IMG/VR virus record: IMGVR_UViG_3300050821_001527
Coordinates: 138,883 to 202,882 of that record
Source of the DNA: a virus
Lineage: Duplodnaviria; Caudoviricetes
Direction: 5' to 3' (one strand)
DNA length: 64,000 nt
Shown: piece by piece, positions 9,666-48,632 of the stretch
Position numbering within the stretch: the first letter of the stretch is position 1
How the letters are laid out: every line of letters begins with the position of its first letter
Translations under genes and position numbers: made by a program
The notes under the pieces: model-generated
What the model was told of the DNA's origin: nothing
Database searches by the model: none
Seen by the model: the letters and a program-made list of their open reading frames with translations, nothing else

Positions 9666-9768
9666 GGAGATTTTTGCGGTGCTGTTTTGGGCCATGCTGA
9701 TTGTTTCCGCATTTATGTGTGGAAAGGAAAGCTCTTGACAACCAAAGAGTAATGGGATAATATTAGGT

Positions 9769-11218: not shown

Positions 11219-12310
11219 ATGAACAACACCGACCAAGAATACTTCCGTCTCCTGCGCCTTATCCTCGATAATGGCCGCACGAAAGTCAATCGAACCGGCG
11301 TGGATACCATCGGCGTTTTCGGCGCACAGGCGCGTTTCAATCTCGCCGAAGGCTTCCCACTTCTAACTACCAAGAAAGTCTTTCTCAAGGCCATCATCCA
11401 CGAACTGCTCTGGTTCATCAAGGGCGACACGAATATCAAGTATCTGGTTGATAACGACGTTCACATTTGGGACGAGTGGGCCTACAAGCGTTTCTGCGAT
11501 GCTCAAAAAGGGACGGACGGAGTTATTACGAAAGCCCTTATTGACCAAAAGCAATTCATTCAGAATATCAAGGAATTTCCTGAATTTGCCGCTAGATGGG
11601 GCGACCTTGGAGAAGGCACCTACGGAGGCATGTGGAGGGCGTTTCCTTACTACCGCGAATACGATGACGGCGAGGATGGTTCCGACTGCGCTACTATACA
11701 ACGCGCCCATGAAACGATTGACCAACTCAAAAAAGTCGTGGATAAGCTGAAAACCAATCCCGATGACCGTCGCATGATTGTCAGCGCGTGGCATCCTTAC
11801 TGGGTTGACCATTGTGCCCTACCGCCGTGTCATTGTCTTTTCCACTTCAACACGGAAGAACTAACCGTCTCTGAGCGACTGGACGTGTATCACAAGGGAG
11901 GCTACAACTTGCTTCCGAAGTATCTTGGCGCGGACGATGCCACGGCGCACAAGAATCTGGATGATATTGGCGTTCCCAAACGCAGGCTTAACTGCTTGCT
12001 CTATCAACGCTCCTGTGACACGTTCTTAGGCGTTCCATTCAATATCGCCAGCTACGCGCTCTTGACGAGCATGATTGCCAAGGTGGTCAACATGGTTCCC
12101 GGCGAGTTTGTCCACACCTACGGCGACTTGCACATTTACAAGAACCATCTGGAACAGGTCAAGGAACAGCTTTCGCGCAAACCGTTCGACAAGCTTCCTA
12201 CCTTGAAACTGAACCCCGCCGTCACCGATTTATTTCAATATAAATACGAGGACATTTCAGTCATGGGATATGAATGTCATCCCGCCATCAAAGCCCCCAT
12301 CGCTGTCTAA
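11219..12310 (+). CDS. thyA: Thymidylate synthase
   Basis: [35 protein letters not shown]...PFNIASY, GDLHIY, IKAPIAV C-terminus. Confidence 0.97.
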
Positions 12311-32809: not shown

Positions 32810-33628
32810 ATGAAAACGCCGCCATATATCATAACTGACCACTCCATCACCCTCGTCATCGGCAACAAGCCCCTCACGATGGTCGCTTCCAACGCCTCCT
32901 ACAGCGAGGTCAAGGCCCGTATCGCCCGTGGCGACTTCAAGGGCATCGAAGACCTTTTTGACGCTGGCAAGGCTCTGGCCCAATACGTCAATGGCAAAAT
33001 CGCCATCGTCGGCAACACCGTTCGTTTCAACGGCAACGTCGTCCACAACTACGTGGTGGACAAGATTATCGCCTTCCGCAAGCAGGGCTTACCCTATCAG
33101 CCGCTCCTGAACTTCCTTGAGAAGCTGTTGCAGAACCCGAGCCAGCATTCCGTGGAAGGTCTGTATTCCTTCTTGGAGAACGGCCTGATGCCGATTACCC
33201 CCGAAGGTAACTTCCAGTCCTACAAGGGCGTTCAGGACAACTTCTACTCCGTCCGCAACGGTTCCCTGACGTTGCTCAAGGGCCGCGCTGATTCGTCCGG
33301 CCACATCTACAACGGTGTCGGCGAGGAAATCGAATGCCCGCGCAACGAAGTCAGCGATAACTTCAACGAAGGCTGCGCCCGTGGCCTGCACATCGGTTCC
33401 CTGAACTACGCGAAGGGTTGGGGCAAGCGTGTGGTCATCGTCGAAGTCAACCCCGCTCATGTCGTCTCCGTTCCAAAGAACGAGGTCGAGAAGATGCGCT
33501 GCCACGCCTACAAGGTCGTGGGTGAGTTCAACGCCCCGCTTGACCAGAACTACACTGTCGGCACCACCGAGCAGTTGTCCGCGAAGGCCAAGGCCCAAAA
33601 GCGCGACTCCAACGGGCGTTTCGCCTAA
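32810..33628 (+). CDS. rIIB: rIIB-like protein
   Basis: PITPEGNF.SYKGV...CPRNEV.D....CA.GLHIGS..YA...VVIVEVNP.HVVSVP...KMRCH.YKV. Confidence 0.85.
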   Translation: MKTPPYIITDHSITLVIGNKPLTMVASNASYSEVKARIARGDFKGIEDLFDAGKALAQYVNGKIAIVGNTVRFNGNVVHNYVVDKIIAFRKQGLPYQPLLNFLEKLLQNPSQHSVEGLYSFLENGLMPITPEGNFQSYKGVQDNFYSVRNGSLTLLKGRADSSGHIYNGVGEEIECPRNEVSDNFNEGCARGLHIGSLNYAKGWGKRVVIVEVNPAHVVSVPKNEVEKMRCHAYKVVGEFNAPLDQNYTVGTTEQLSAKAKAQKRDSNGRFA

Positions 33629-33671
33629 TCCGAACAAATTCCGAATCCCACAGGGGGCTAGGTAATAAACC

Positions 33672-33705
33672 GGGCGGCTAGTCTTAGGACTGGTCGCCCT
33701 TTTTT
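33672..33705 (+). terminator. Intrinsic terminator after rIIB
   Basis: GGGCGGCTAGTC-TTAG-GACTGGTCGCCC-TTTTTT. Confidence 0.9.
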
Positions 33706-33739
33706 ATTCAATAAATATCAACCCCAAACTATAATAAGC

Positions 33740-33934
33740 ATGAAACAAAAACTCTCACTACTTCTGTTGGCCGGGGTGCTGGCGTTGGCGGGTTGCAGGA
33801 GCGATTCTGCGTCCGCGATGCCCGAATATCGCCCGACCCCTTCGATTGACCTGTCCAACCCGGAGAGCCAGCGCAATTACGACGCCTATCTCAAGTGGCA
33901 GGCCGAACATGACGCACAAAAAGCCAAGCAATAA
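33740..33934 (+). CDS. Small lipoprotein
   Basis: LLLLAGVLALAGC lipobox; TATAAT just upstream. Confidence 0.7.
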   Translation: MKQKLSLLLLAGVLALAGCRSDSASAMPEYRPTPSIDLSNPESQRNYDAYLKWQAEHDAQKAKQ

Positions 33935-33971
33935 GCTTGACTTACGGGGAGGATTTGGTAGAGTAAGGGGA

Positions 33972-34517
33972 ATGAAAATCCTTTTCCTCGATATTGATGG
34001 CGTCCTGAACAGCGAAGAATCGTTCCACCTGAACCATCAGGCTCGTTGCGATGACGCCCACCGTAATGGCCGCGACGGGGCTTCCTTCAAGCCGGAATTT
34101 TGCTGGCCCTTGGGACACCTTCACACGCCCCTGATTGCCCGTCTGAATCAAATCATGGAGGACACTGGTTGCTTCATCGTCCTATCCTCGTCTTGGAGAA
34201 TCATTTGCGACTTGCCGGATTTGCGCGGCTGGATGAAGCAGAAGGGTTTCGAGTTTGGGGACAGGATGATTGACAAGACGGACAATGACCCGCAGGACGC
34301 CCGTGGCGGGCAGATACAGCGTTGGCTGGACGCGCACCCCGAAGTGACTGCCTACGCAATCCTTGACGATGATTCCGAGGATATTGTCGGAACCTACACC
34401 ACAAAACATCACCACAACAACTTTGTCCATACGCCTTTCATGTATGGCCTTCAAGACGAGCAGGTTGGACAGGTGTTTGAAATTTTGAATCGCAGGAATA
34501 AGTCCTTGACAGTTTGA
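33972..34517 (+). CDS. HAD-superfamily phosphatase (HAD_SAK_2, RNA-repair-associated type)
   Basis: MKILFLDIDGVLNS, VLSSSWR, RGGQIQRWL, AILDDD. Confidence 0.85.
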   Translation: MKILFLDIDGVLNSEESFHLNHQARCDDAHRNGRDGASFKPEFCWPLGHLHTPLIARLNQIMEDTGCFIVLSSSWRIICDLPDLRGWMKQKGFEFGDRMIDKTDNDPQDARGGQIQRWLDAHPEVTAYAILDDDSEDIVGTYTTKHHHNNFVHTPFMYGLQDEQVGQVFEILNRRNKSLTV

Positions 34518-34540
34518 GAAGTGATTGGTAGTCTAATTAT

Positions 34541-34676
34541 GGTCTGAGCGGTAGCTGGACGTAAGGCAGTAGTCGGTGGCTAAAACAGGAAGTGGCAGGA
34601 GTAATTGCCCTGCTTACCCTGATAAATCTAAGGCGAATCGAGCGTCCGAGGGGCTAACAGCCCTTCCTGACCACCA
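34541..34676 (+). ncRNA. tRNA-scaffold RNA 1 (136 nt, ends in ACCA)
   Basis: Starts 6 nt after the -10 box TAGTCT; acceptor GGTCTGA/CCTGACC (2 mismatches); internal helix GGACG/CGTCC; T-like arm AGGGG-CTAACAG-CCCTT; ACCA. Confidence 0.6.
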
Positions 34677-34681
34677 ATTTA

Positions 34682-36068
34682 ATGAAAAAAAAGAATCTCA
34701 TAGTGGCCTATCAAACGCCTGACGGCGAACTTCATCCCGTCTGCATGGCCTACAGCCATTTCCATTTGGGCGTGGATAATGCGGCGGTGTTTACCGAAGA
34801 CCAGCAGATTCGCCTCGCCATTGCCGCCGTCAAGAGCCAGAAGGCCCACTGGAAGGGTTTGTCCCGCGATGGGGCGTTTGCCATCATCAATATTGACAAG
34901 CCGCACGGGTATTCCATTTTTCTCGAAAACGCTGGCGGGATTCTTGCCCACAACTACAAGGGACAAATTCGTCGAGCGGCAATCAGGAGCATTAACGGCA
35001 TGAGCGCGGCGGCATGGTATGAGAAGCTGCGCGAACGCAAGTCTTTATGCGTCGTATGAGATTTGAAGAACGATGGGCCTTAACGAAACATGGTCTGATA
35101 ATTCCTACCATCAAGTATGGGGATTTTAGCCAAGTCATTCTCCTACCCCTTTTTCTGTTGAGGTTTCCGAGGCAGGATTGGCCAGAGATACCAATGTATC
35201 GTGACTTCCCGGCCCTGCCCGGAACAAATACGTGTGTTCTAGTCTATGGCAAGAAACAGATTGGCTTGAGCATAGATTCAAACGGGGAGTCCATTGGGGT
35301 AAGTCTTAGCCATCCCGTATCTAAGTATTGGTTGTCTATTTTGCAGCCAATTTGGAACGCTCATAAGCCTAAATGCCCGACGTGCCGCGATACTGGTTGG
35401 GACGGAATAGGATACACACTAACCTGTGTTGATTGCGGAAAGTCCAAATAAATATGATTAAATTTAAAGACATGGCGATAGGCCAGCGATTCTTCGCATG
35501 GGGCGATTGCGTCCTGAACTACAATTACCCGAAATGGTGCCTGTTGGAAAAGGTTGACGAAAGCACAGCCAAGGAAATCATGGCTGACGGCAGCGATGGC
35601 ATCAAGACCGGAATGGAAACGGCGGGGAGTTTCATCCCCGAAGTCAAGCACGTTTTCCTTGTCGAAGTCAGCGTCCTGAATCCCATTGACAAGCCCGGAA
35701 CGATTCAAGGTCATGTGGAGAAATTCTTGCAGAACGTCAATGACCTACAGACGCAAATCGGAAGTTCCTCCAACTTCACCATAAAACTCCTTGACAAGAG
35801 TGGAAGCGTTTGATAAGGTTAGAGCGTAATGAAATTCGTGAAAGCAAATCTCGACGGCGAAGAATTGAGATTGACGATTGAGGGCTTAGAAAGCCTTTTG
35901 GAAAACATGAAATCTTGGGGGCAAAAAGCTCCATTATATTCTCCCATGCGAGAGGTCTTTCTTGCTCAATGTGAACAAAGAAAGGCGCGAATATCCGGTC
36001 TGGTTGAATACTTTCAGATAGGATTGCTCAATACTCCGAACGGACAATTTATCGGAGACAAAATTTAA
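34682..36068 (+). other. Hypothetical CDS (34682-35059, 35047-35451, 35454-35813, 35829-36068)
   Basis: ORF track plus promoter positions. Confidence 0.65.
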
Positions 36069-36271
36069 CGGTGGATAGCTCAGGTTCAGAGCGCAAGCTT
36101 AATAAGCTTTCCTGAAAAGGATAGCCGCACATTACCCGAGAGAAAGCGGAAAAAGTTGGCCGTGAAATTGACGGCAGAACGTTCGTGAGTAAAGCGGATA
36201 TGGGTGGTTGTTGGGTTCAGGAGTAGATTACATCTACGAGGTCGAAGAATGAAATCCTTCTCCACTGACCA
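36069..36271 (+). ncRNA. tRNA-scaffold RNA 2 (203 nt, ends in ACCA)
   Basis: Acceptor CGGTGGA/TCCACTG; TA; D arm GCTC-AGGTTCA-GAGC; hairpin AAGC-TTAATAA-GCTT; domain of about 110 nt closed by TCCTGAA/TTCAGGA; hairpin GTAGA/TCTAC; GAGGTC; T arm GAAGA-ATGAAAT-CCTTC; ACCA. Confidence 0.75.
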
Positions 36272-36323
36272 TTTTGTCACTACATTACTTTCCCGTAGTG
36301 ACATTCTTAGTGTAATATCTGAT

Positions 36324-36887
36324 ATGAACGAGTCAGATTACATTGGAAAAACTTTCAACCGCATTACCATCATCGGGAAAGACGAAGAACGCACTACCAA
36401 AGATTGCTTCTATGTTACTGGCAAATGCACTTGCGGACGTATCAAGAGTTATGCCCGCCACCGATTGATGGGAAAGGATGCTCCGCAAAGCTGCGGCTGC
36501 ATTCAAAGAGAACTCAAGGCTGGTAAGAAATATCTCCCACCGGGAGAGGCCGCGATTCGTGAAACATGGAGAATTTACAAAGAGAATGCTAAACGTCGTA
36601 AGTTTTCTTTTTCCATTGATTTATTGAATTTTAAATCATTGACCCAAAAACCCTGTCATTATTGCGGGGCACCACCAACCAACGTCCACAAAACCCGCAC
36701 AAAGACGCCAGATTCTTGTTCTTATAGCGGTTTAGACCGAGTGAAGACGCGAGAGGGATATAGCGTAGAAAATGTCGTAACCTGTTGTGCAGTTTGTAAT
36801 TGGATGAAAGGGACGATGGAATACGCCGAATTCATCAAACAGGTCGAAAAAATATCGAATCACTTGAAAAGCCTTGACAGGAAGTGA
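36324..36887 (+). CDS. HNH homing-type endonuclease (PacI-like C-terminus)
   Basis: IGKTFNRITI...KCTCG N-terminus; CHYCG...GLDRV...GYSVENVVTCCAVCNWMKG; ATG 7 nt after GTGTAAT. Confidence 0.85.
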   Translation: MNESDYIGKTFNRITIIGKDEERTTKDCFYVTGKCTCGRIKSYARHRLMGKDAPQSCGCIQRELKAGKKYLPPGEAAIRETWRIYKENAKRRKFSFSIDLLNFKSLTQKPCHYCGAPPTNVHKTRTKTPDSCSYSGLDRVKTREGYSVENVVTCCAVCNWMKGTMEYAEFIKQVEKISNHLKSLDRK

Positions 36888-36908
36888 ATTTTGGTTTAAT
36901 TTCAGTAT

Positions 36909-37373
36909 ATGTTTGCGACACATAACTCAGCCGTCGAGTCCTTCCAATTCAGGTGGGCGGAACCTTTGGGCTATCCCGAGTGTCCTTACATGAAAAGATG
37001 GGTTTTTGTGTTTTTCGGTTACTCTATTCGCGTCCATCACTGGATTCGCAGCGACGACAAACGTTTCTTTCATTGTCACCCTTGGAACTTTCTGACCATC
37101 GTTCTCAAGGGTGGTTACACGGATGTATCGCCGTCTTTAGACCTGTTTCTTGACGCTCAGGAGCCTATTAGAGAGACTTTGACGGCTGGAATGGTCAAAT
37201 ACCGTCGCGCCGAACACAAGCACTATGTTGATGTTCCCGTGGGCGGGGCATGGACTCTGCTTCTGGCCGGACGCAAAAAGCGCAAGTGGGGCTTTTGGAT
37301 TAAGCCTAACCAGTTTTTCCGACCACTACGATATTTCAGTAAATACGGACACCCGCCCTGTTCGGAACAGTGA
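36909..37373 (+). CDS. Cupin-fold protein
   Basis: SIRVHHW..SD...FHCHPW.F.TIVLKGGY.D...HKH.V. Confidence 0.7.
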   Translation: MFATHNSAVESFQFRWAEPLGYPECPYMKRWVFVFFGYSIRVHHWIRSDDKRFFHCHPWNFLTIVLKGGYTDVSPSLDLFLDAQEPIRETLTAGMVKYRRAEHKHYVDVPVGGAWTLLLAGRKKRKWGFWIKPNQFFRPLRYFSKYGHPPCSEQ

Positions 37374-37505
37374 TTAGCTCTTAACCAGCAAGTCAACAGC
37401 AAGCAGAATAACAGCAACCGGGATTAGGGGCCACGAAGGTTTGACAAGGGCACCAATCGCCAAGGCGAGCGCGAGAACGGGCAGGATGACATGAATGTTG
37501 TTCAT
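37374..37505 (-). CDS. 43-aa two-TM peptide (absent from the ORF track)
   Basis: TTGGAT-17-TATAAT-5-ATG on the - strand; MNNIHVILPVLALALAIGALVKPSWPLIPVAVILLAVDLLVKS*. Confidence 0.7.
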   Translation of the reverse strand: MNNIHVILPVLALALAIGALVKPSWPLIPVAVILLAVDLLVKS

Positions 37506-37559
37506 GCCTTATTATATTGGAAGTCAGGTATTTATCCAAGGGGAAATCCCCGATAGAAA

Positions 37560-39311
37560 ATGAAAACTGTCAGAGAATGGACAAATAAGGCGATGGATAC
37601 GACTTTTCGATGGGATTTCGAGAAGTTGATACAATCCATTCAGATAGATGCCTTTAAAGCGGGGCGCAAATCCGCCCGCCACGTTTGCCGCGAAAGCAAG
37701 ACCTGTGCCTGCGATATTCAGGGTTTGGAACCCAATGAAGAATGTCCGGTGCATGGCGCGGGGGAATATCCTCCCCGTTGCGGAACCTGCGGGCGTTTTA
37801 TCACCCGCGACAATAAATCTCAATAAATATGAGCCTTTCACAAGACCCGGAACAACTCGAAAATCTTCCCTCCCGCGAAGTCATTCGTGTCAGCGACACC
37901 TACGACCACTATTGGGGCGAAGGGATGCCTTGGGCGCGTATGAACCGTTGGTTCGAGGCTCAGGAGGGGCGCAATGTTGACCGCGTTTTCCACGACTTCG
38001 TGCATCTGAAATGGCTGCTGGCCGAATATCGCACCAAGGAACAATTCCGCCGCCACATTGAAATGGACACCTTCGTCGTGGATGGAAGGGTTTGCTACTA
38101 CGACGCTTACCACTCCCGCTGGCAAAACGAGCCTTGGCAGGTTGTCGAGAAGCAGGCTCGCAAGACCATCTACGTCAATCCGACTACACACACCGTCGAA
38201 ATCTTCAAGCCTCCGACGGACAAAAGCTGGAAGTCCCGCTGGTATGCCGAACGTGCGGCGAAGGTCAAGGTGCTTGGCGATTACCACCAGCTTTACAAGA
38301 AAGACGGTATTTGGTATGAAGTCAAGGCGCAAAAGGCCACCAACCGTATGCTCCACTTCACCCCTTGGCGTTGCCCCTTGAAAAAGCCGGATGACATTCT
38401 GATGGAAAGCGGCGACTCGCCCTTGGGCCAGCCCATCCAAATCATCCTCAAACGCCAGCTTAACAGCAAGGAACTGCGTAAACATGGCTTGGCCAACGAC
38501 TTGAAATAATCTATGAAAATAAGAAACGAGAAAGTAATTGACGTGTCCGATTGGGACGGCTTGGTTGAGAAAACGTATGGCAGGCCATACAGCTTCCAAC
38601 AGCAAGACGGGTGCCAGAGCAGGGGTAGTTTCCGCTTTAGCGTCCCGAGCGACGAAGCCTGCGACTTTGAAAGCGAAACCGTGCCGGAAATCGTCAACCA
38701 TGAAACGATGGGCGTGAGCTTTGCCGCATGGCTCAAACGCGACCCCAAGGCGAAATTGGCCGGGGAGAAAGATTGTCCCGATTACTGTATCGAATTGTGG
38801 TGGCACCGCAATTTCTATCCTGAATTTCAAACGGTGGCGAATGACCTTCACGCCAAGGGACTTCTGGAAGCCGGGGACTACACCATCAACATTGACTGGT
38901 AAATAAAATTCAATAAATATATGCTAGGCTACATCATACTCATTCTCCTGTTGGCCGTGTTTGTGGCGGCGTTCATCGTCGTCCGCAACCAGCGCGACAA
39001 AATCTACGATTCGATGGTCGAATATCGTCGCATGTATTGGGCTGAATGTGACCGTGCCGACGACTTGGAAATCAGGCTCATAGACGGGCCGAAACCCCCA
39101 AAGGATTGACGTGGAAAGACTTACGCTTAACCAGCAAGAGGATTGGCAGACATGGAAGCAGTCTATGGGGCGTTATTCGGGCATTGACTTCGACAAGGAG
39201 CCTACCCATTATCCGTGTATCTTGTTGTGGTTCAACTATGATATTCGAGGCTCCAAACATGATGGGGGTGGCCACGATTTTGTTTACAGGGAAGATTTGG
39301 AAAAGCTTTGA
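37560..39311 (+). other. Hypothetical CDS (37560-37826, 37829-38509, 38513-38902, 38921-39109, 39111-39311)
   Basis: Tightly packed ORFs. Confidence 0.65.
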
Positions 39312-39388
39312 TTTTCCCTTGACAGTTCAAGAATTATCTGTCAGAGTAATAGAGTAGTCGCAGTAAAAACCTAAACTTAAAACCTAAA

Positions 39389-41455
39389 ATGATTCAACTC
39401 GACAAACCCAACACGGTAATTTCCAGCGGCATCGAAAACGCTGTCTCCTTCGGCATCAAGCAGGAAGGACTGGCCCACATCTTCTCCGTTCTCCGCAATC
39501 AACTGTATTCTGACAAGACCCTCGCCGTAATCCGCGAGTATTGCACGAATGCCGTTGACGCCCATGTCGAAGCCGGGAAAGCCCTACTGCCCATCAAGGT
39601 CACGCTGCCCTCCCGCTTCAATCTGGTGTTCAAGGTGCGCGATTTCGGCTTGGGCCTGACCGAGCAGGACATTCAGGACATTTACGCCTTCTACGGCGAA
39701 TCCACGAAGCGCAAGAGCAACGCCATGATTGGGCAGTTGGGCTTGGGCAGCAAGTCGGCTTTCGCCTACGGTGACAATTTCGTCATCACTTCCTACACCA
39801 ACGGAACCAAGACCACCTACAACGCCTTCATTGACGTGACGCAGATTGGTCAAATCGCCAAGTTGGGCAGCGAACCCACCGACGAGCCGAATGGTGTTGA
39901 GATTTCCATTGGCGTCCGCGAGGATGACGTGGAAGATTTCCACAGCAAGGCCGAGAACCTTTTCAAGTATTTCAAGGTCAAGCCGGAAATTGACGGCGCG
40001 GATTTCAAGTTTGAAGCCCGTGTTCCCATCATGGAAGGCAAGGGCTGGCGCGTGTTCAGCGGCACTTCCGTTGCCGTCATGGGCAACATCGGCTACCCGC
40101 TCGAAAACCACACGAAGGACAACCAGATTGCCGAAGCTTTGACGGCGGGCATTGAAGTTGATTTCAACATCGGCGACTTGGAAATTTCCGCCTCCCGCGA
40201 AAAGCTGCAATACACTGACCGCACCAAGGCTGCGGTGGAAGCCAAGCTGCGTGAAGTCATCAAGGAAGCGGGCGAGCAGTTGAACAAGCGTTTCGCCGCC
40301 TGCGCGACGTTGTTTGACGCGATGAAGCTGTATGGACAGGTCATGGACTACGGTTCTAGTCTGTATCCCCTGCGCGGCCTGTTGAAGAAGAATCTGATGT
40401 TCAACGGCACTTCGATTTCGAGTAGCCGCCTACACTTCCAAACGCCGAATGACGGTAGTTGGAACGTGCGTGAATACAGCCTGACCTACCGCTCGAAGCG
40501 CGTCCGCTCGAATCAGGTCAACGTGATTGACTGTGACGAAAAGACGGTTGTGGTTCTGAACGACTTGGGCCTGCGCGGTGGGATTCCGAATCGCGTCCAT
40601 GCCAATGTCATGGCGGGCAAGCGTGTCTATGTCGCCTACTATGCGAACAAGGACAGCGCGAAGTTCTTGAAGGAAACCGGACTGGTGGATGCGAACTGCA
40701 TCCTCCTTAGCTCGCTGCCGAAAGTCAGCTTGGCGACTGCCGGTAATTCCGGTGGCGGGGCGAAGAACAGCAAGCACGGTCTTAGCGTGTTCTCCTTCGA
40801 TTACGCCGCTTCCAAGAACATGACCCGCTATTCCAGCCGCAATTCCGACTACTGGAAGCCCGAAACGGTGGACGTGGCGAATGATGCCGGTGTCTATGTC
40901 ATCATTGACCAGTTCAACTTCCAGACCCGCAACAGTGGTTGGGATAGCCCGAGCGACATGCGCCGTCTGATTGAACGCTTGGAAAAGTTGGGCATCACGG
41001 TGCCGACCATCTACGGGTTCAAGGCCAAGCAGTTTGAGAAGGCCCGCAAGAACGCCAAGATGGTTAGCCTGTGGAACTGGCTCGACACCACGCTGGCCGC
41101 GTATTTCACCACGAATGACATTTCGCAGAAGCTCGCCAATCGCATCGAGTTCAACAACAACAGGGGTTCTGAAAGTTGGATTCGCACCTTGATGGCCCAC
41201 GCCAGCGAGTTGACTCCCAAGACGAGTGCTGCCGGGACTGCGGAGTTCCTGCGCCATCTGGAATGCTCTGGCGAAGCTGCGAAGCTGGACGCTTGCGCCG
41301 AGTTTTCGGGTTACGTGACGCTGGTGAAGCCCGAGTTCACCATGTCCGAAATTGCGAAGGACTTCAACGCGAAGTATCCCTTGCTCAAGTTCGTCAACTT
41401 CGGCCAGCCGAATAGCTGGATTGCGACACTCGCATACATCAACTTGGTTGGGTAA
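39389..41455 (+). CDS. rIIA: rIIA-like protein (N-terminal GHKL/HATPase domain)
   Basis: LYSDKTLAVIREYCTNAVDAH, VRDFGLGL, STKRKSN..IGQLGLGSKSAFAY, ISASREKL.YT. Confidence 0.88.
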   Translation: MIQLDKPNTVISSGIENAVSFGIKQEGLAHIFSVLRNQLYSDKTLAVIREYCTNAVDAHVEAGKALLPIKVTLPSRFNLVFKVRDFGLGLTEQDIQDIYAFYGESTKRKSNAMIGQLGLGSKSAFAYGDNFVITSYTNGTKTTYNAFIDVTQIGQIAKLGSEPTDEPNGVEISIGVREDDVEDFHSKAENLFKYFKVKPEIDGADFKFEARVPIMEGKGWRVFSGTSVAVMGNIGYPLENHTKDNQIAEALTAGIEVDFNIGDLEISASREKLQYTDRTKAAVEAKLREVIKEAGEQLNKRFAACATLFDAMKLYGQVMDYGSSLYPLRGLLKKNLMFNGTSISSSRLHFQTPNDGSWNVREYSLTYRSKRVRSNQVNVIDCDEKTVVVLNDLGLRGGIPNRVHANVMAGKRVYVAYYANKDSAKFLKETGLVDANCILLSSLPKVSLATAGNSGGGAKNSKHGLSVFSFDYAASKNMTRYSSRNSDYWKPETVDVANDAGVYVIIDQFNFQTRNSGWDSPSDMRRLIERLEKLGITVPTIYGFKAKQFEKARKNAKMVSLWNWLDTTLAAYFTTNDISQKLANRIEFNNNRGSESWIRTLMAHASELTPKTSAAGTAEFLRHLECSGEAAKLDACAEFSGYVTLVKPEFTMSEIAKDFNAKYPLLKFVNFGQPNSWIATLAYINLVG

Positions 41456-47463: not shown

Positions 47464-47748
47464 ACGGCGGCAAGGGATTGAGTTTTGATTGTAAAACATG
47501 CCGTGCATGGCCTGTTTCTTAGTCCCGCGTTTTTTTCCTGCAAGAAACTCGTTCGGTGGGTATTGCGATAGACTAAAAACCCTCCAAGGCGGCAAGTGCC
47601 CCGGTTCTGATACAGCCGAAAACTTGCATGTGGATTGCATCTACCAGTCCAGCTTTTAGACTTTTGTGCTACAACAATAATCCGTTAGGTTGCTGATTCG
47701 ATAATATGCAAACAGTGTTAGCTCTTTGACTACAACAAAGACCGCCGT
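47464..47748 (+). ncRNA. tRNA-scaffold RNA 3 (285 nt)
   Basis: Acceptor-like ACGGCGG/CCGCCGT stacked on a T-like arm TCTTTG-ACTACAA-CAAAGA; internal stems GTTTT/AAAAC, GTTTCTT/AAGAAAC, TTGCATGT/ATATGCAA; no ORF. Confidence 0.6.
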
Positions 47749-48358: not shown

Positions 48359-48632
48359 TGACGTGTGGCGGAATGTAAAGACGCAAGGCGAAAACACGGT
48401 CTAGCTGAGTAAGTCGGGGAGAACGCTACCCGAAAGTAAACTACTGAAATGCGGCAAGTCCTGAATTGACAGGCAGCGCGAACTGACCAGAACCAACTGG
48501 TGATACCGTTGATGGCGTAAGTAGCTCCACCATCAATCTGTGTGTAAGACCAATGGCTGAAATATGCCGACAGAAAGCGCATAAGATTAGTGAGCCGATA
48601 TATCCATGCAGGTTTAAATCCTGCCACGTCAA
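48359..48632 (+). ncRNA. tRNA-scaffold RNA 4 (about 273 nt, Leu/Ser-like ends)
   Basis: Perfect acceptor TGACGTG/CACGTCA; TG-GCG-GAATGTAAAGA-CGC D arm; T arm GCAGG-TTTAAAT-CCTGC; about 220-nt multi-hairpin insert. Confidence 0.75.

What the first reader, a model, noticed from the sequence alone, without database searches (positions are those of the whole stretch)
36069..36271. 203-nt tRNA-like RNA with three arms between the D and T arms, ending ACCA
Both ends are textbook tRNA (CGGTGGA-TA-GCTC...GAGC-G at the 5' end; GAGGTC-T arm-TCCACTG-ACCA at the 3' end). Between them lie an anticodon-like hairpin (AAGC-TTAATAA-GCTT), a domain of about 110 nt closed by TCCTGAA/TTCAGGA (containing CCGC/GCGG and GCCGT/ACGGC), and a second hairpin (GTAGA-TTACA-TCTAC). 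It starts right after the stop of the upstream ORF and is followed by a GTCACTAC/GTAGTGAC hairpin.
Basis: seen in the sequence. Interest (0 to 1): 0.8.

Follow-up and report, generated by a model that had tools for sequence, protein, structure and literature searches.

The report
Phage tRNA carrying giant extra arm
An uncultured 203-kb soil phage encodes a 203-base RNA that is a complete isoleucine-type tRNA cloverleaf with a 128-base folded insert where the short variable loop begins. RNA samples hold it unspliced, but no relative was found, so its job is inferred, not shown.

Summary
Window 36069-36271 (+) has a 7-bp acceptor stem, a D arm, an anticodon-type arm (loop UUAAUAA, anticodon AAU), a class-I variable loop (AGGUC), a weak T-type arm and an encoded ACCA end.

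A 113-nt rod-like hairpin and a 15-nt hairpin sit between the anticodon stem and the variable loop. The insert folds far better on the + strand (z -4.4) than on the - strand (z -2.2), and 7 of its 34 pairs are G-U. That points to structure kept at the RNA level.

Contigs from two soil metatranscriptomes cross the insert unspliced and stop near the ACCA end. The downstream HNH endonuclease starts at ATG 36324, so the RNA is not part of that ORF.

"Textbook" is too strong for the 3' end. The T arm has an A-C mismatch and no T-psi-C loop, and ARAGORN and Rfam both miss the gene.

I found no homologue in any collection, so there is no covariation test. The stretch lies in a 5.7-kb insertion between the rIIB-like gene and rIIA.

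Best reading (about 50%): a tRNA-derived stable RNA that does not decode, or decodes poorly, and whose tRNA body serves processing and stability while displaying the insert. The closest known layout is phage T4 RNA C.

The scan had already noted this stretch and similar tRNA-shaped phage RNAs on other DNA.

The parts
35791..35819 (+). Sigma-70-like promoter candidate: TTGACA, 17 nt, TAAGGT, just upstream of ORF 35829.
   Evidence: Read from the sequence. The -10 matches only 3 of 6, so the scan does not list it. The X3 RNA contig starts at 35844. Inference only.
35829..36068 (+). Orphan 79-aa ORF whose TAA stop abuts position 1 of the RNA. One RNA contig joins it to the RNA.
   Evidence: no homologue among 5.8 billion proteins; X3 contig 35844-36259.
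36069..36075 (+). Acceptor stem, 5' strand (CGGUGGA).
   Evidence: pair probability 0.87-1.0 with 36261-36267.
36076..36093 (+). U8, A9, D arm (GCUC, loop AGGUUCA, GAGC) and G26.
   Evidence: probability 0.99. Rfam's tRNA model aligns this part with posterior probability near 1.
36094..36110 (+). Anticodon-type arm: 4-5 bp stem and 7-nt loop UUAAUAA (U33, anticodon AAU, A37, A38). It can also fold as a 6-bp AAGCUU palindrome with a 3-nt loop. Its last base, U43 (36110), is also the first base of the insert's closing stem in the MFE fold, so this part and the next overlap by one base.
36110..36222 (+). 113-nt rod-like hairpin domain closed by UCCUGAA/UUCAGGA, with apical hairpin GCCGU-GAAAUUG-ACGGC.
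   Evidence: -39.4 kcal/mol, z -4.30; - strand only -23.9, z -2.17; 7 of 34 pairs are G-U.
36223..36237 (+). Second inserted hairpin, GUAGAU-UAC-AUCUAC.
   Evidence: probability 0.75-0.98.
36238..36243 (+). G plus class-I variable loop AGGUC (A44, G45, G46, U47, C48).
   Evidence: Sequence. Array tRNAs of the same phage carry AGGUU, AGGUG or AGGCC at this place.
36244..36260 (+). Degenerate T-type arm: GAAG(A), loop AUGAAAU, (C)CUUC. Pair 53:61 is an A-C mismatch and there is no T-psi-C consensus.
   Evidence: probability about 0.4, competing with a 3-bp alternative; ARAGORN fails.
36261..36271 (+). Acceptor stem 3' strand (UCCACUG), discriminator A73 and encoded CCA.
   Evidence: All 24 array tRNAs listed also encode CCA.
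36276..36302 (+). Downstream hairpin (8-bp stem, 11-nt loop) followed by AUUCUUA; a possible weak terminator.
   Evidence: Sequence. The terminator scan does not flag it. The RNA contigs stop before it.
36324..36887 (+). Free-standing HNH endonuclease gene, not part of the RNA.
   Evidence: PHROG endonuclease and HNH families; (homologues start at this ATG).

Best explanation
This is a tRNA-derived stable RNA gene. It has an isoleucine-type class-I cloverleaf (anticodon AAU, A73, encoded CCA) with a two-hairpin module of 128 nt at the 43/44 junction, pointing out where class-II tRNAs carry their long arm.

Proposed mechanism:
1. It is transcribed together with the small upstream ORF.
2. RNase P cuts directly after the ORF's stop codon, guided by the acceptor/T minihelix and the 3' ACCA.
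3. The 3' end is trimmed to the encoded CCA.
4. The compact tRNA core then protects and displays the 113-nt rod as the working part, as a binding site, decoy or sponge for a host or phage factor. The RNA does not serve as a routine decoder.

Shown: the anatomy, the strand-specific fold, and presence of the unspliced form in RNA libraries.
Inferred: RNase P and CCA processing, stability, and any cargo function.
For: - Anatomy and fold statistics.
- The descriptor finds only true tRNAs, one array shell and this RNA in the genome, against 0.4 hits per shuffled genome.
- All core tertiary-contact nucleotides are present (U8, A14, G15/C48, A9/U12-A23, G26/A44, G10/G45, G22/G46, A21; read).
- The insert's structure exists only on the + strand and uses 7 G-U pairs. 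That fits selection on RNA, not a DNA palindrome.
- RNA contigs from two studies cross the insert without a joint. One lies wholly inside the 203 nt (36085-36255). Both stop 12-16 nt before the ACCA end, while the DNA runs continue. The same RNA runs show no cover of 35600-35843 or 36263-36659, which argues against DNA carry-over.
- The T arm departs from the rule kept by most of this phage's array tRNAs, where 53:61 is G-C in most and base-paired (G-U in one) in the rest, and tRNA finders reject it. That argues against routine decoding.
- The phage already has tRNA-Ile(GAU) in its array.
- T4 RNA C folds into the same topology: a closing stem, a long rod, a second hairpin and a T arm.
Against: - No homologue was found anywhere, so there is no covariation and no evidence of conservation.
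- Contigs cannot show true ends, strand or abundance, and no raw reads were available.
- The gene lies in a hypervariable 5.7-kb insertion that the nearest relative lacks, so it may be young or dispensable.
- No partner protein or target is identified. Neighbouring ORFs have no informative family.
- The intact anticodon loop has no explanation under a pure carrier model.
Confidence: 0.5

Rival explanations
1. Decaying tRNA gene. A former tRNA-Ile-like gene was hit by an insertion and is now a transcribed relic without function.
For: It is an orphan in every collection searched. It lies 50 kb from the tRNA array, in a plastic region next to a mobile HNH endonuclease gene. The T arm is degenerate with an A-C mismatch. 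The insert is bounded by a perfect 7-bp inverted repeat.
Against: Every other helix and all core tertiary nucleotides are intact. The insert is a strand-specific RNA fold rich in G-U, with z -4.4 on the + strand against -2.2 on the - strand, unlike a DNA palindrome or a MITE. There is no second copy of the insert in the genome. The RNA appears as a discrete piece in RNA libraries.
Confidence: 0.2
2. Working decoder: a tRNA(AAU) read by IleRS and the ribosome, with a hypertrophied variable arm that adds a regulatory or recruiting handle. It would be a natural counterpart of engineered V-arm aptamer tRNAs.
For: It has a complete anticodon loop with U33, A37 and A38. A35, U36, A73 and U12-A23 match known E. 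coli IleRS identity elements (established knowledge, not tested here). CCA is encoded, as in all array tRNAs. Ordinary tRNA genes with anticodon AAT exist in other phages (L029, L033, L034, L036). T loops in this phage are often non-canonical. Engineered tRNAs tolerate V-arm aptamers (PMC7590224).
Against: It has the A53-C61 mismatch and no T-loop consensus. PMC7590224 reports that V-loop Spinach fusions keep only marginal tRNA activity, and this insert is larger. A34 is unusual in bacteria. The phage already encodes tRNA-Ile(GAU), which reads AUU and AUC. ARAGORN and Rfam reject it.
Confidence: 0.12
3. 3'-terminal tRNA-like cap of the upstream mRNA. The structure stays attached to ORF 35829-36068 and protects the transcript's 3' end or couples its translation to tRNA enzymes.
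For: The X3 contig joins the ORF and the RNA in one piece, 35844-36259. The ORF's stop codon abuts position 1. There is no separate promoter between them.
Against: The X4 contig covers only the RNA (36085-36255), with nothing on the ORF. That fits a processed, more stable species. A contig across two genes does not prove a single transcript.
Confidence: 0.1
4. Intron-bearing tRNA. The 128-nt insert is removed to give a tRNA of about 75 nt.
For: Lak megaphages carry tRNA genes with unexplained inserts that were called introns (PMC6784885). Candidate boundaries follow a U and end in a G.
Against: Both RNA contigs are unspliced and no joint was seen. There is no group I or group II match even at E up to 10. 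128 nt is too short for a group I core (established knowledge). The position is not the anticodon loop. Even the in-silico spliced form is not recognised as a tRNA.
Confidence: 0.04

Closest known systems
Bacteriophage T4 RNA C (species 1 RNA, rnaC, AF158101 70908-71046) and RNA D
   Same: Both are small stable phage RNAs of unknown role (PMC3014915). In RNA C a terminal stem stacked on a T arm encloses one long irregular hairpin and a second shorter hairpin. That is the same topology, in a T4-like phage.
   Different: T4 RNA C has a canonical T arm (loop UUCGAAU) but no D arm and no anticodon arm, and it lies inside the tRNA cluster. This RNA keeps the D and anticodon arms and the variable loop, has a degenerate T arm, encodes CCA, and lies 50 kb from the array. 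There is no sequence similarity.
Class-II tRNAs (Leu, Ser, Tyr) with a long variable arm
   Same: The extra helix leaves the core between the anticodon stem and the T stem.
   Different: Natural variable arms are up to roughly 20-25 nt (established knowledge). Here 128 nt sit in two hairpins, on a class-I type body with a 4-bp D stem and an AGGUC loop.
Engineered tRNA-aptamer fusions (V-Spinach tRNAs, aptamer-tagged allo-tRNAs; tRNA-scaffold expression of recombinant RNA)
   Same: A foreign folded RNA is placed in a tRNA body that supplies processing and stability. V-loop insertion is one of the designs (PMC7590224; PMC3753655 listed).
   Different: Those are man-made. This one is natural, larger, and of unknown ligand.
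Canonical phage tRNA-Ile(AAT) genes
   Same: They share the anticodon loop UUAAUAA and the TAGCTCAG...AGAGC D arm (L029, L033, L034, L036).
   Different: Those are 73-76 nt, have normal T arms, and ARAGORN recognises them. They show no wider sequence similarity to this RNA.
tmRNA tRNA-like domain
   Same: An acceptor stem and T arm with a CCA end enclose a large non-tRNA domain. The phage has its own tmRNA.
   Different: This RNA has no G3-U70, no tag reading frame and no pseudoknots, and it has no Rfam or ARAGORN tmRNA match. It keeps the D and anticodon arms.

Membership tests
Canonical tRNA (Rfam RF00005) | Cloverleaf with acceptor, D, anticodon and T arms plus the conserved core nucleotides | tested here: met
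   All four arms are in the MFE fold. U8, A14, G15/C48, A21, G26, A44, G45 and G46 were read.
Canonical tRNA (Rfam RF00005) | Score at or above the curated threshold, or detection by a tRNA finder | tested here: not met
   Rfam gives 16.6 bits against 29, on 36069-36139 with a wrong 3' half. ARAGORN finds nothing, with or without the insert.
Canonical tRNA (Rfam RF00005) | T arm with a G53-C61 pair and a T-psi-C-R-A loop | tested here: not met
   Pair 53:61 is A-C and the loop is AUGAAAU.
Canonical tRNA (Rfam RF00005) | Length of about 70-95 nt | tested here: not met
   203 nt. The RNA contigs are unspliced.
Canonical tRNA (Rfam RF00005) | Aminoacylation and decoding | not testable with these tools
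   Needs biochemistry.
tRNA with a group I intron | Group I catalytic core, with insertion in the anticodon loop | tested here: not met
   No Intron_gpI match at E up to 10. The insert is 128 nt and lies at the 43/44 junction. A true example for comparison is L035.
tmRNA | tRNA-like domain with G3-U70, a tag reading frame and pseudoknots | tested here: not met
   The G-U pair is at 2:71.
T4 RNA C-type stable tRNA-shaped phage RNA (an informal class, with no curated model) | A terminal stem stacked on a T arm encloses non-tRNA hairpins, in a T4-like phage | tested here: met
   Compare the folds. The rIIA and rIIB genes are shown.
T4 RNA C-type stable tRNA-shaped phage RNA (an informal class, with no curated model) | Sequence homology to rnaC or rnaD | tested here: not met
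   Model R1 finds nothing in the T4 locus L038.
T4 RNA C-type stable tRNA-shaped phage RNA (an informal class, with no curated model) | Accumulates as a discrete, stable, processed RNA | tested here: inconclusive
   The contigs of two metatranscriptomes fit this, but contigs do not show ends or abundance.

The most novel reading that the evidence does not exclude
The RNA is charged (probably with isoleucine) and still enters the ribosome or a phage enzyme, and its 113-nt arm recruits or senses a factor. It would be a natural aptamer-tagged tRNA that links decoding of AUU codons, or the charging state, to a phage-specific regulator or anti-defence function.
Probability: 0.1. Interest if true: 0.85.

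Novelty: new variant of a known kind. Interest (0 to 1): 0.5.

Why it matters
Phages are known to carry tRNAs, tmRNAs and a few unexplained tRNA-shaped stable RNAs such as T4 RNA C and RNA D, whose roles have been unknown for 50 years.

This one is unusual because it keeps the whole cloverleaf, anticodon loop included, and adds a large folded module exactly where engineers insert aptamers. If it is functional, nature uses the tRNA body as a chassis for other RNA domains. It would also give a defined construct for testing how much extra RNA RNase P, CCA enzymes, synthetases and the ribosome tolerate.

Its orphan status and the lack of covariation keep this a well-described candidate rather than a demonstrated new class.

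Tried and rejected
Homologue searches, all empty or chance:
- BLAST of 35800-36900 against GenBank phages.
- Exact and degenerate patterns in IMG/VR. Hits were coding sequences, ordinary tRNA-Ile(AAT) genes or a group-I-intron tRNA.
- The D-arm 19-mer in 185,579 prokaryote genomes gave one chance hit in a coding region.
- Covariance model R1 on the five rIIA relatives' whole records, on the HNH homologues' neighbourhoods, on the pattern loci and L019, and on the T4 tRNA region and this phage's own array.
- nhmmer and blastn on the rIIA loci.
- Flanking proteins as anchors. The upstream ORF has no relative and the downstream 154-aa protein has none in IMG/VR.
- rIIA relatives in IMG/VR and JGI metagenomes reach only 53% identity and lack the whole 5.7-kb region.

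Paralogy with the three sibling RNAs in the window:
- Short shared strings exist, such as GURGAUURCAUCUAC with 47464-47748.
- Local alignment scores do not exceed shuffles, so I claim no homology.

Other readings ruled out or left without support:
- No known Rfam family matches the insert.
- The minus-strand ORF 36086-36304 and the N-terminal extension 36204-36323 have no family, and HNH homologues have no counterpart for the extension.
- The upstream ORF has no informative ESM Atlas hit.
- A relaxed shell descriptor without CCA is non-specific.

Limits of the RNA data:
- Parts of the laid stretch without RNA cover are not evidence of silence.

Full report
**Context.** The window is bases 138883-202882 of a 202,882-bp IMG/VR virus record from soil, estimated 91% complete. 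The phage is T4-like. RIIA lies at 39389-41455 and an RIIB-like protein at 32810-33628. Upstream of the window the genome holds a tmRNA and a large tRNA array.

In the nearest relative (53% RIIA identity) the rIIB-like and rIIA genes are adjacent. In this phage 5.7 kb of small orphan ORFs, an HNH endonuclease gene and this RNA lie between them.

**Observation.** The unconstrained MFE fold recovers the following (-66.3 kcal/mol, z -3.37):
- a 7-bp acceptor stem;
- the D arm;
- the AAGCUU hairpin;
- a 113-nt domain closed by UCCUGAA/UUCAGGA;
- the GUAGAU hairpin;
- a weak T hairpin.

Pair probabilities are 0.9-1.0 everywhere except the T arm, which is about 0.4.

A simple descriptor (7-bp acceptor, U8, 4-bp D stem, T arm abutting the acceptor, NCCA) hits 14 places in the genome. 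These are 12 array tRNAs, a 148-nt shell inside the array, and this RNA. Dinucleotide-shuffled genomes give 0.4 hits each. With the anticodon-type arm and A14 added, I estimate a chance expectation near 0.001 per genome.

**Anatomy in tRNA numbering.**
- Present: U8, A9, G10-C25, U12-A23, C13-G22, A14, G15, A21 and G26.
- Anticodon stem 28-31/39-42, with loop U32 U33 A34 A35 U36 A37 A38.
- The insert comes next.
- Then A44 G45 G46 U47 C48, T stem 49-52/62-65 with A53-C61 unpaired, loop AUGAAAU, acceptor 66-72, A73 and CCA.

So the nucleotides that build the tRNA core are all there, and the insert sits at the 43/44 junction. That is the side from which class-II tRNAs project their long arm. The body is class-I and isoleucine-like: A35, U36, A37, A38, A73 and U12-A23 match E. 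coli IleRS identity elements. That last point is established knowledge and was not tested here.

**What is not tRNA-like.**
- ARAGORN finds nothing, even when I delete the insert in silico.
- Rfam's tRNA model gives 16.6 bits against a threshold of 29, and only by pairing the 5' end with a wrong partner inside the insert.
- Most of the phage's own array tRNAs keep a G-C pair at 53:61 and the rest still pair there (G-U in one), despite many odd T loops. This RNA has an A-C mismatch.

**The insert.** On its own, 36110-36222 folds into one long irregular rod (-39.4 kcal/mol, z -4.30). The reverse complement reaches only -23.9 (z -2.17), and 7 of the 34 pairs are G-U. The whole minus strand is also weaker. 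The structure is therefore specific to the + strand RNA and is not a DNA palindrome of a mobile element. No second copy exists in the genome, and no Rfam family matches it.

**Expression.** Two DNA runs hold the stretch in one piece and may be its source. Two metatranscriptomes from other studies hold parts of it.
- In X3 one contig covers 35844-36259, which is the upstream ORF plus the RNA.
- In X4 one contig covers 36085-36255, wholly inside the RNA.
- Both cross the insert without a joint. Both stop 12-16 nt short of the ACCA end, while the DNA contigs run on.
- Neither RNA run covers 35600-35843 or 36263-36659. DNA carry-over would not be expected to leave such gaps.

This is weak but consistent evidence for an unspliced RNA ending near 36271 and made from a transcript that begins near 35826. 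A TTGACA-17-TAAGGT promoter-like site lies at that place (read). Contigs cannot prove ends, strand or level.

**Coding alternatives.** The ORF 36204-36887 is an HNH endonuclease. Its homologues align from the ATG at 36324 and have no counterpart for the 40 codons that overlap the RNA. The minus-strand ORF 36086-36304 has no family.

**Relatives.** I found none.
- BLAST against GenBank phages gave nothing.
- Five IMG/VR pattern scans gave only chance or unrelated hits.
- One scan of prokaryote genomes gave a chance coding hit.
- Covariance model R1 found nothing on the related phage records, the HNH neighbourhoods, the pattern loci and L019, or T4 and the phage's own array.
- Protein-anchored searches also failed.

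The pattern scan did show that ordinary 73-76-nt tRNA genes with anticodon AAT exist in other phages. No covariation analysis was possible.

**Comparison with known RNAs.** T4 RNA C and RNA D are stable RNAs from the T4 tRNA region with unknown roles (PMC3014915). Folding the annotated T4 rnaC gives a terminal stem stacked on a canonical T arm. That stem encloses a long irregular hairpin and a second hairpin. This is the same topology as here, but without the D and anticodon arms.

Lak megaphages carry tRNA genes with unexplained inserts that were called introns (PMC6784885). Engineered V-loop fusions (V-Spinach, aptamer-tagged allo-tRNAs) show that this position accepts foreign hairpins, usually with much lower decoding activity (PMC7590224).

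Earlier notes of this scan describe many anticodon-less, leucine-type tRNA shells in phages, three more tRNA-shaped RNAs in this window, and a rewired elbow in this phage's tRNAs. I used these as leads only. The shared strings between this RNA and its window siblings do not exceed shuffles.

**Verdict.** This is a real, well-folded, tRNA-derived RNA gene that is probably expressed. It is distinguished by a complete cloverleaf plus a 128-nt module at the variable-loop junction.

Most likely (about 0.5) it is a non-decoding stable RNA that uses the tRNA body for RNase P and CCA processing and for stability, and displays the rod as the functional part. The rivals are:
- a decaying tRNA gene (0.2);
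- a working tRNA(AAU) with a giant arm (0.12);
- a tRNA-like 3' cap of the upstream mRNA (0.1);
- an intron (0.04).

Without relatives or raw reads, function remains inferred.

Noticed in passing
L007:19417-19564 (genome 125416-125563, + strand, inside the tRNA array): A 148-nt tRNA-shaped RNA lies between two array tRNAs. It has a 7-bp acceptor stem, a leucine-type D arm, a canonical T arm (loop UUCGAUU) and ACCA, but a folded insert of about 90 nt where the anticodon arm should be.
   Followed up: partly
L007:15660-15967 (genome 121659-121966, + strand): A sub-threshold but full-length match to the raiA motif RNA (RF03072) lies inside the phage tRNA array. It scores 54.9 bits against a 101.3-bit threshold, E 7e-11.
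   Followed up: no
window 34541-34676, 47464-47748, 48359-48632 (+ strand): Three more non-coding stretches close with an acceptor-like stem next to a T-like hairpin. The first also ends in ACCA. They are not significantly similar in sequence to 36069-36271.
   Followed up: partly
window 33629-39388: The rIIB-like and rIIA genes are adjacent in the nearest relative (L002/L019). Here they are separated by 5.7 kb of orphan ORFs, two tRNA-shaped RNAs and an HNH endonuclease gene. This looks like a hotspot of gene gain.
   Followed up: partly
L029, L033, L034, L036 (IMG/VR contigs): Ordinary-length phage tRNA genes with anticodon AAT (loop UUAAUAA). This anticodon is unusual for bacterial systems.
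   Followed up: no
L030:1567-, L031 (minus strand of 9699-9729), L035 (minus strand of 12011-12042): L030 and L031 have tRNA 5' halves followed directly by an ORF with cysteine pairs. This may be an intron-borne or invading endonuclease gene. L035 has a tRNA with an insert of about 200 nt in the anticodon loop that looks like a group I intron.
   Followed up: no
L007/L008 (genome 116-127 kb): All 24 array tRNAs listed encode their 3' CCA, and many have T loops with G-C at positions 55-56 in place of U-C. ARAGORN finds only 17 of them.
   Followed up: partly
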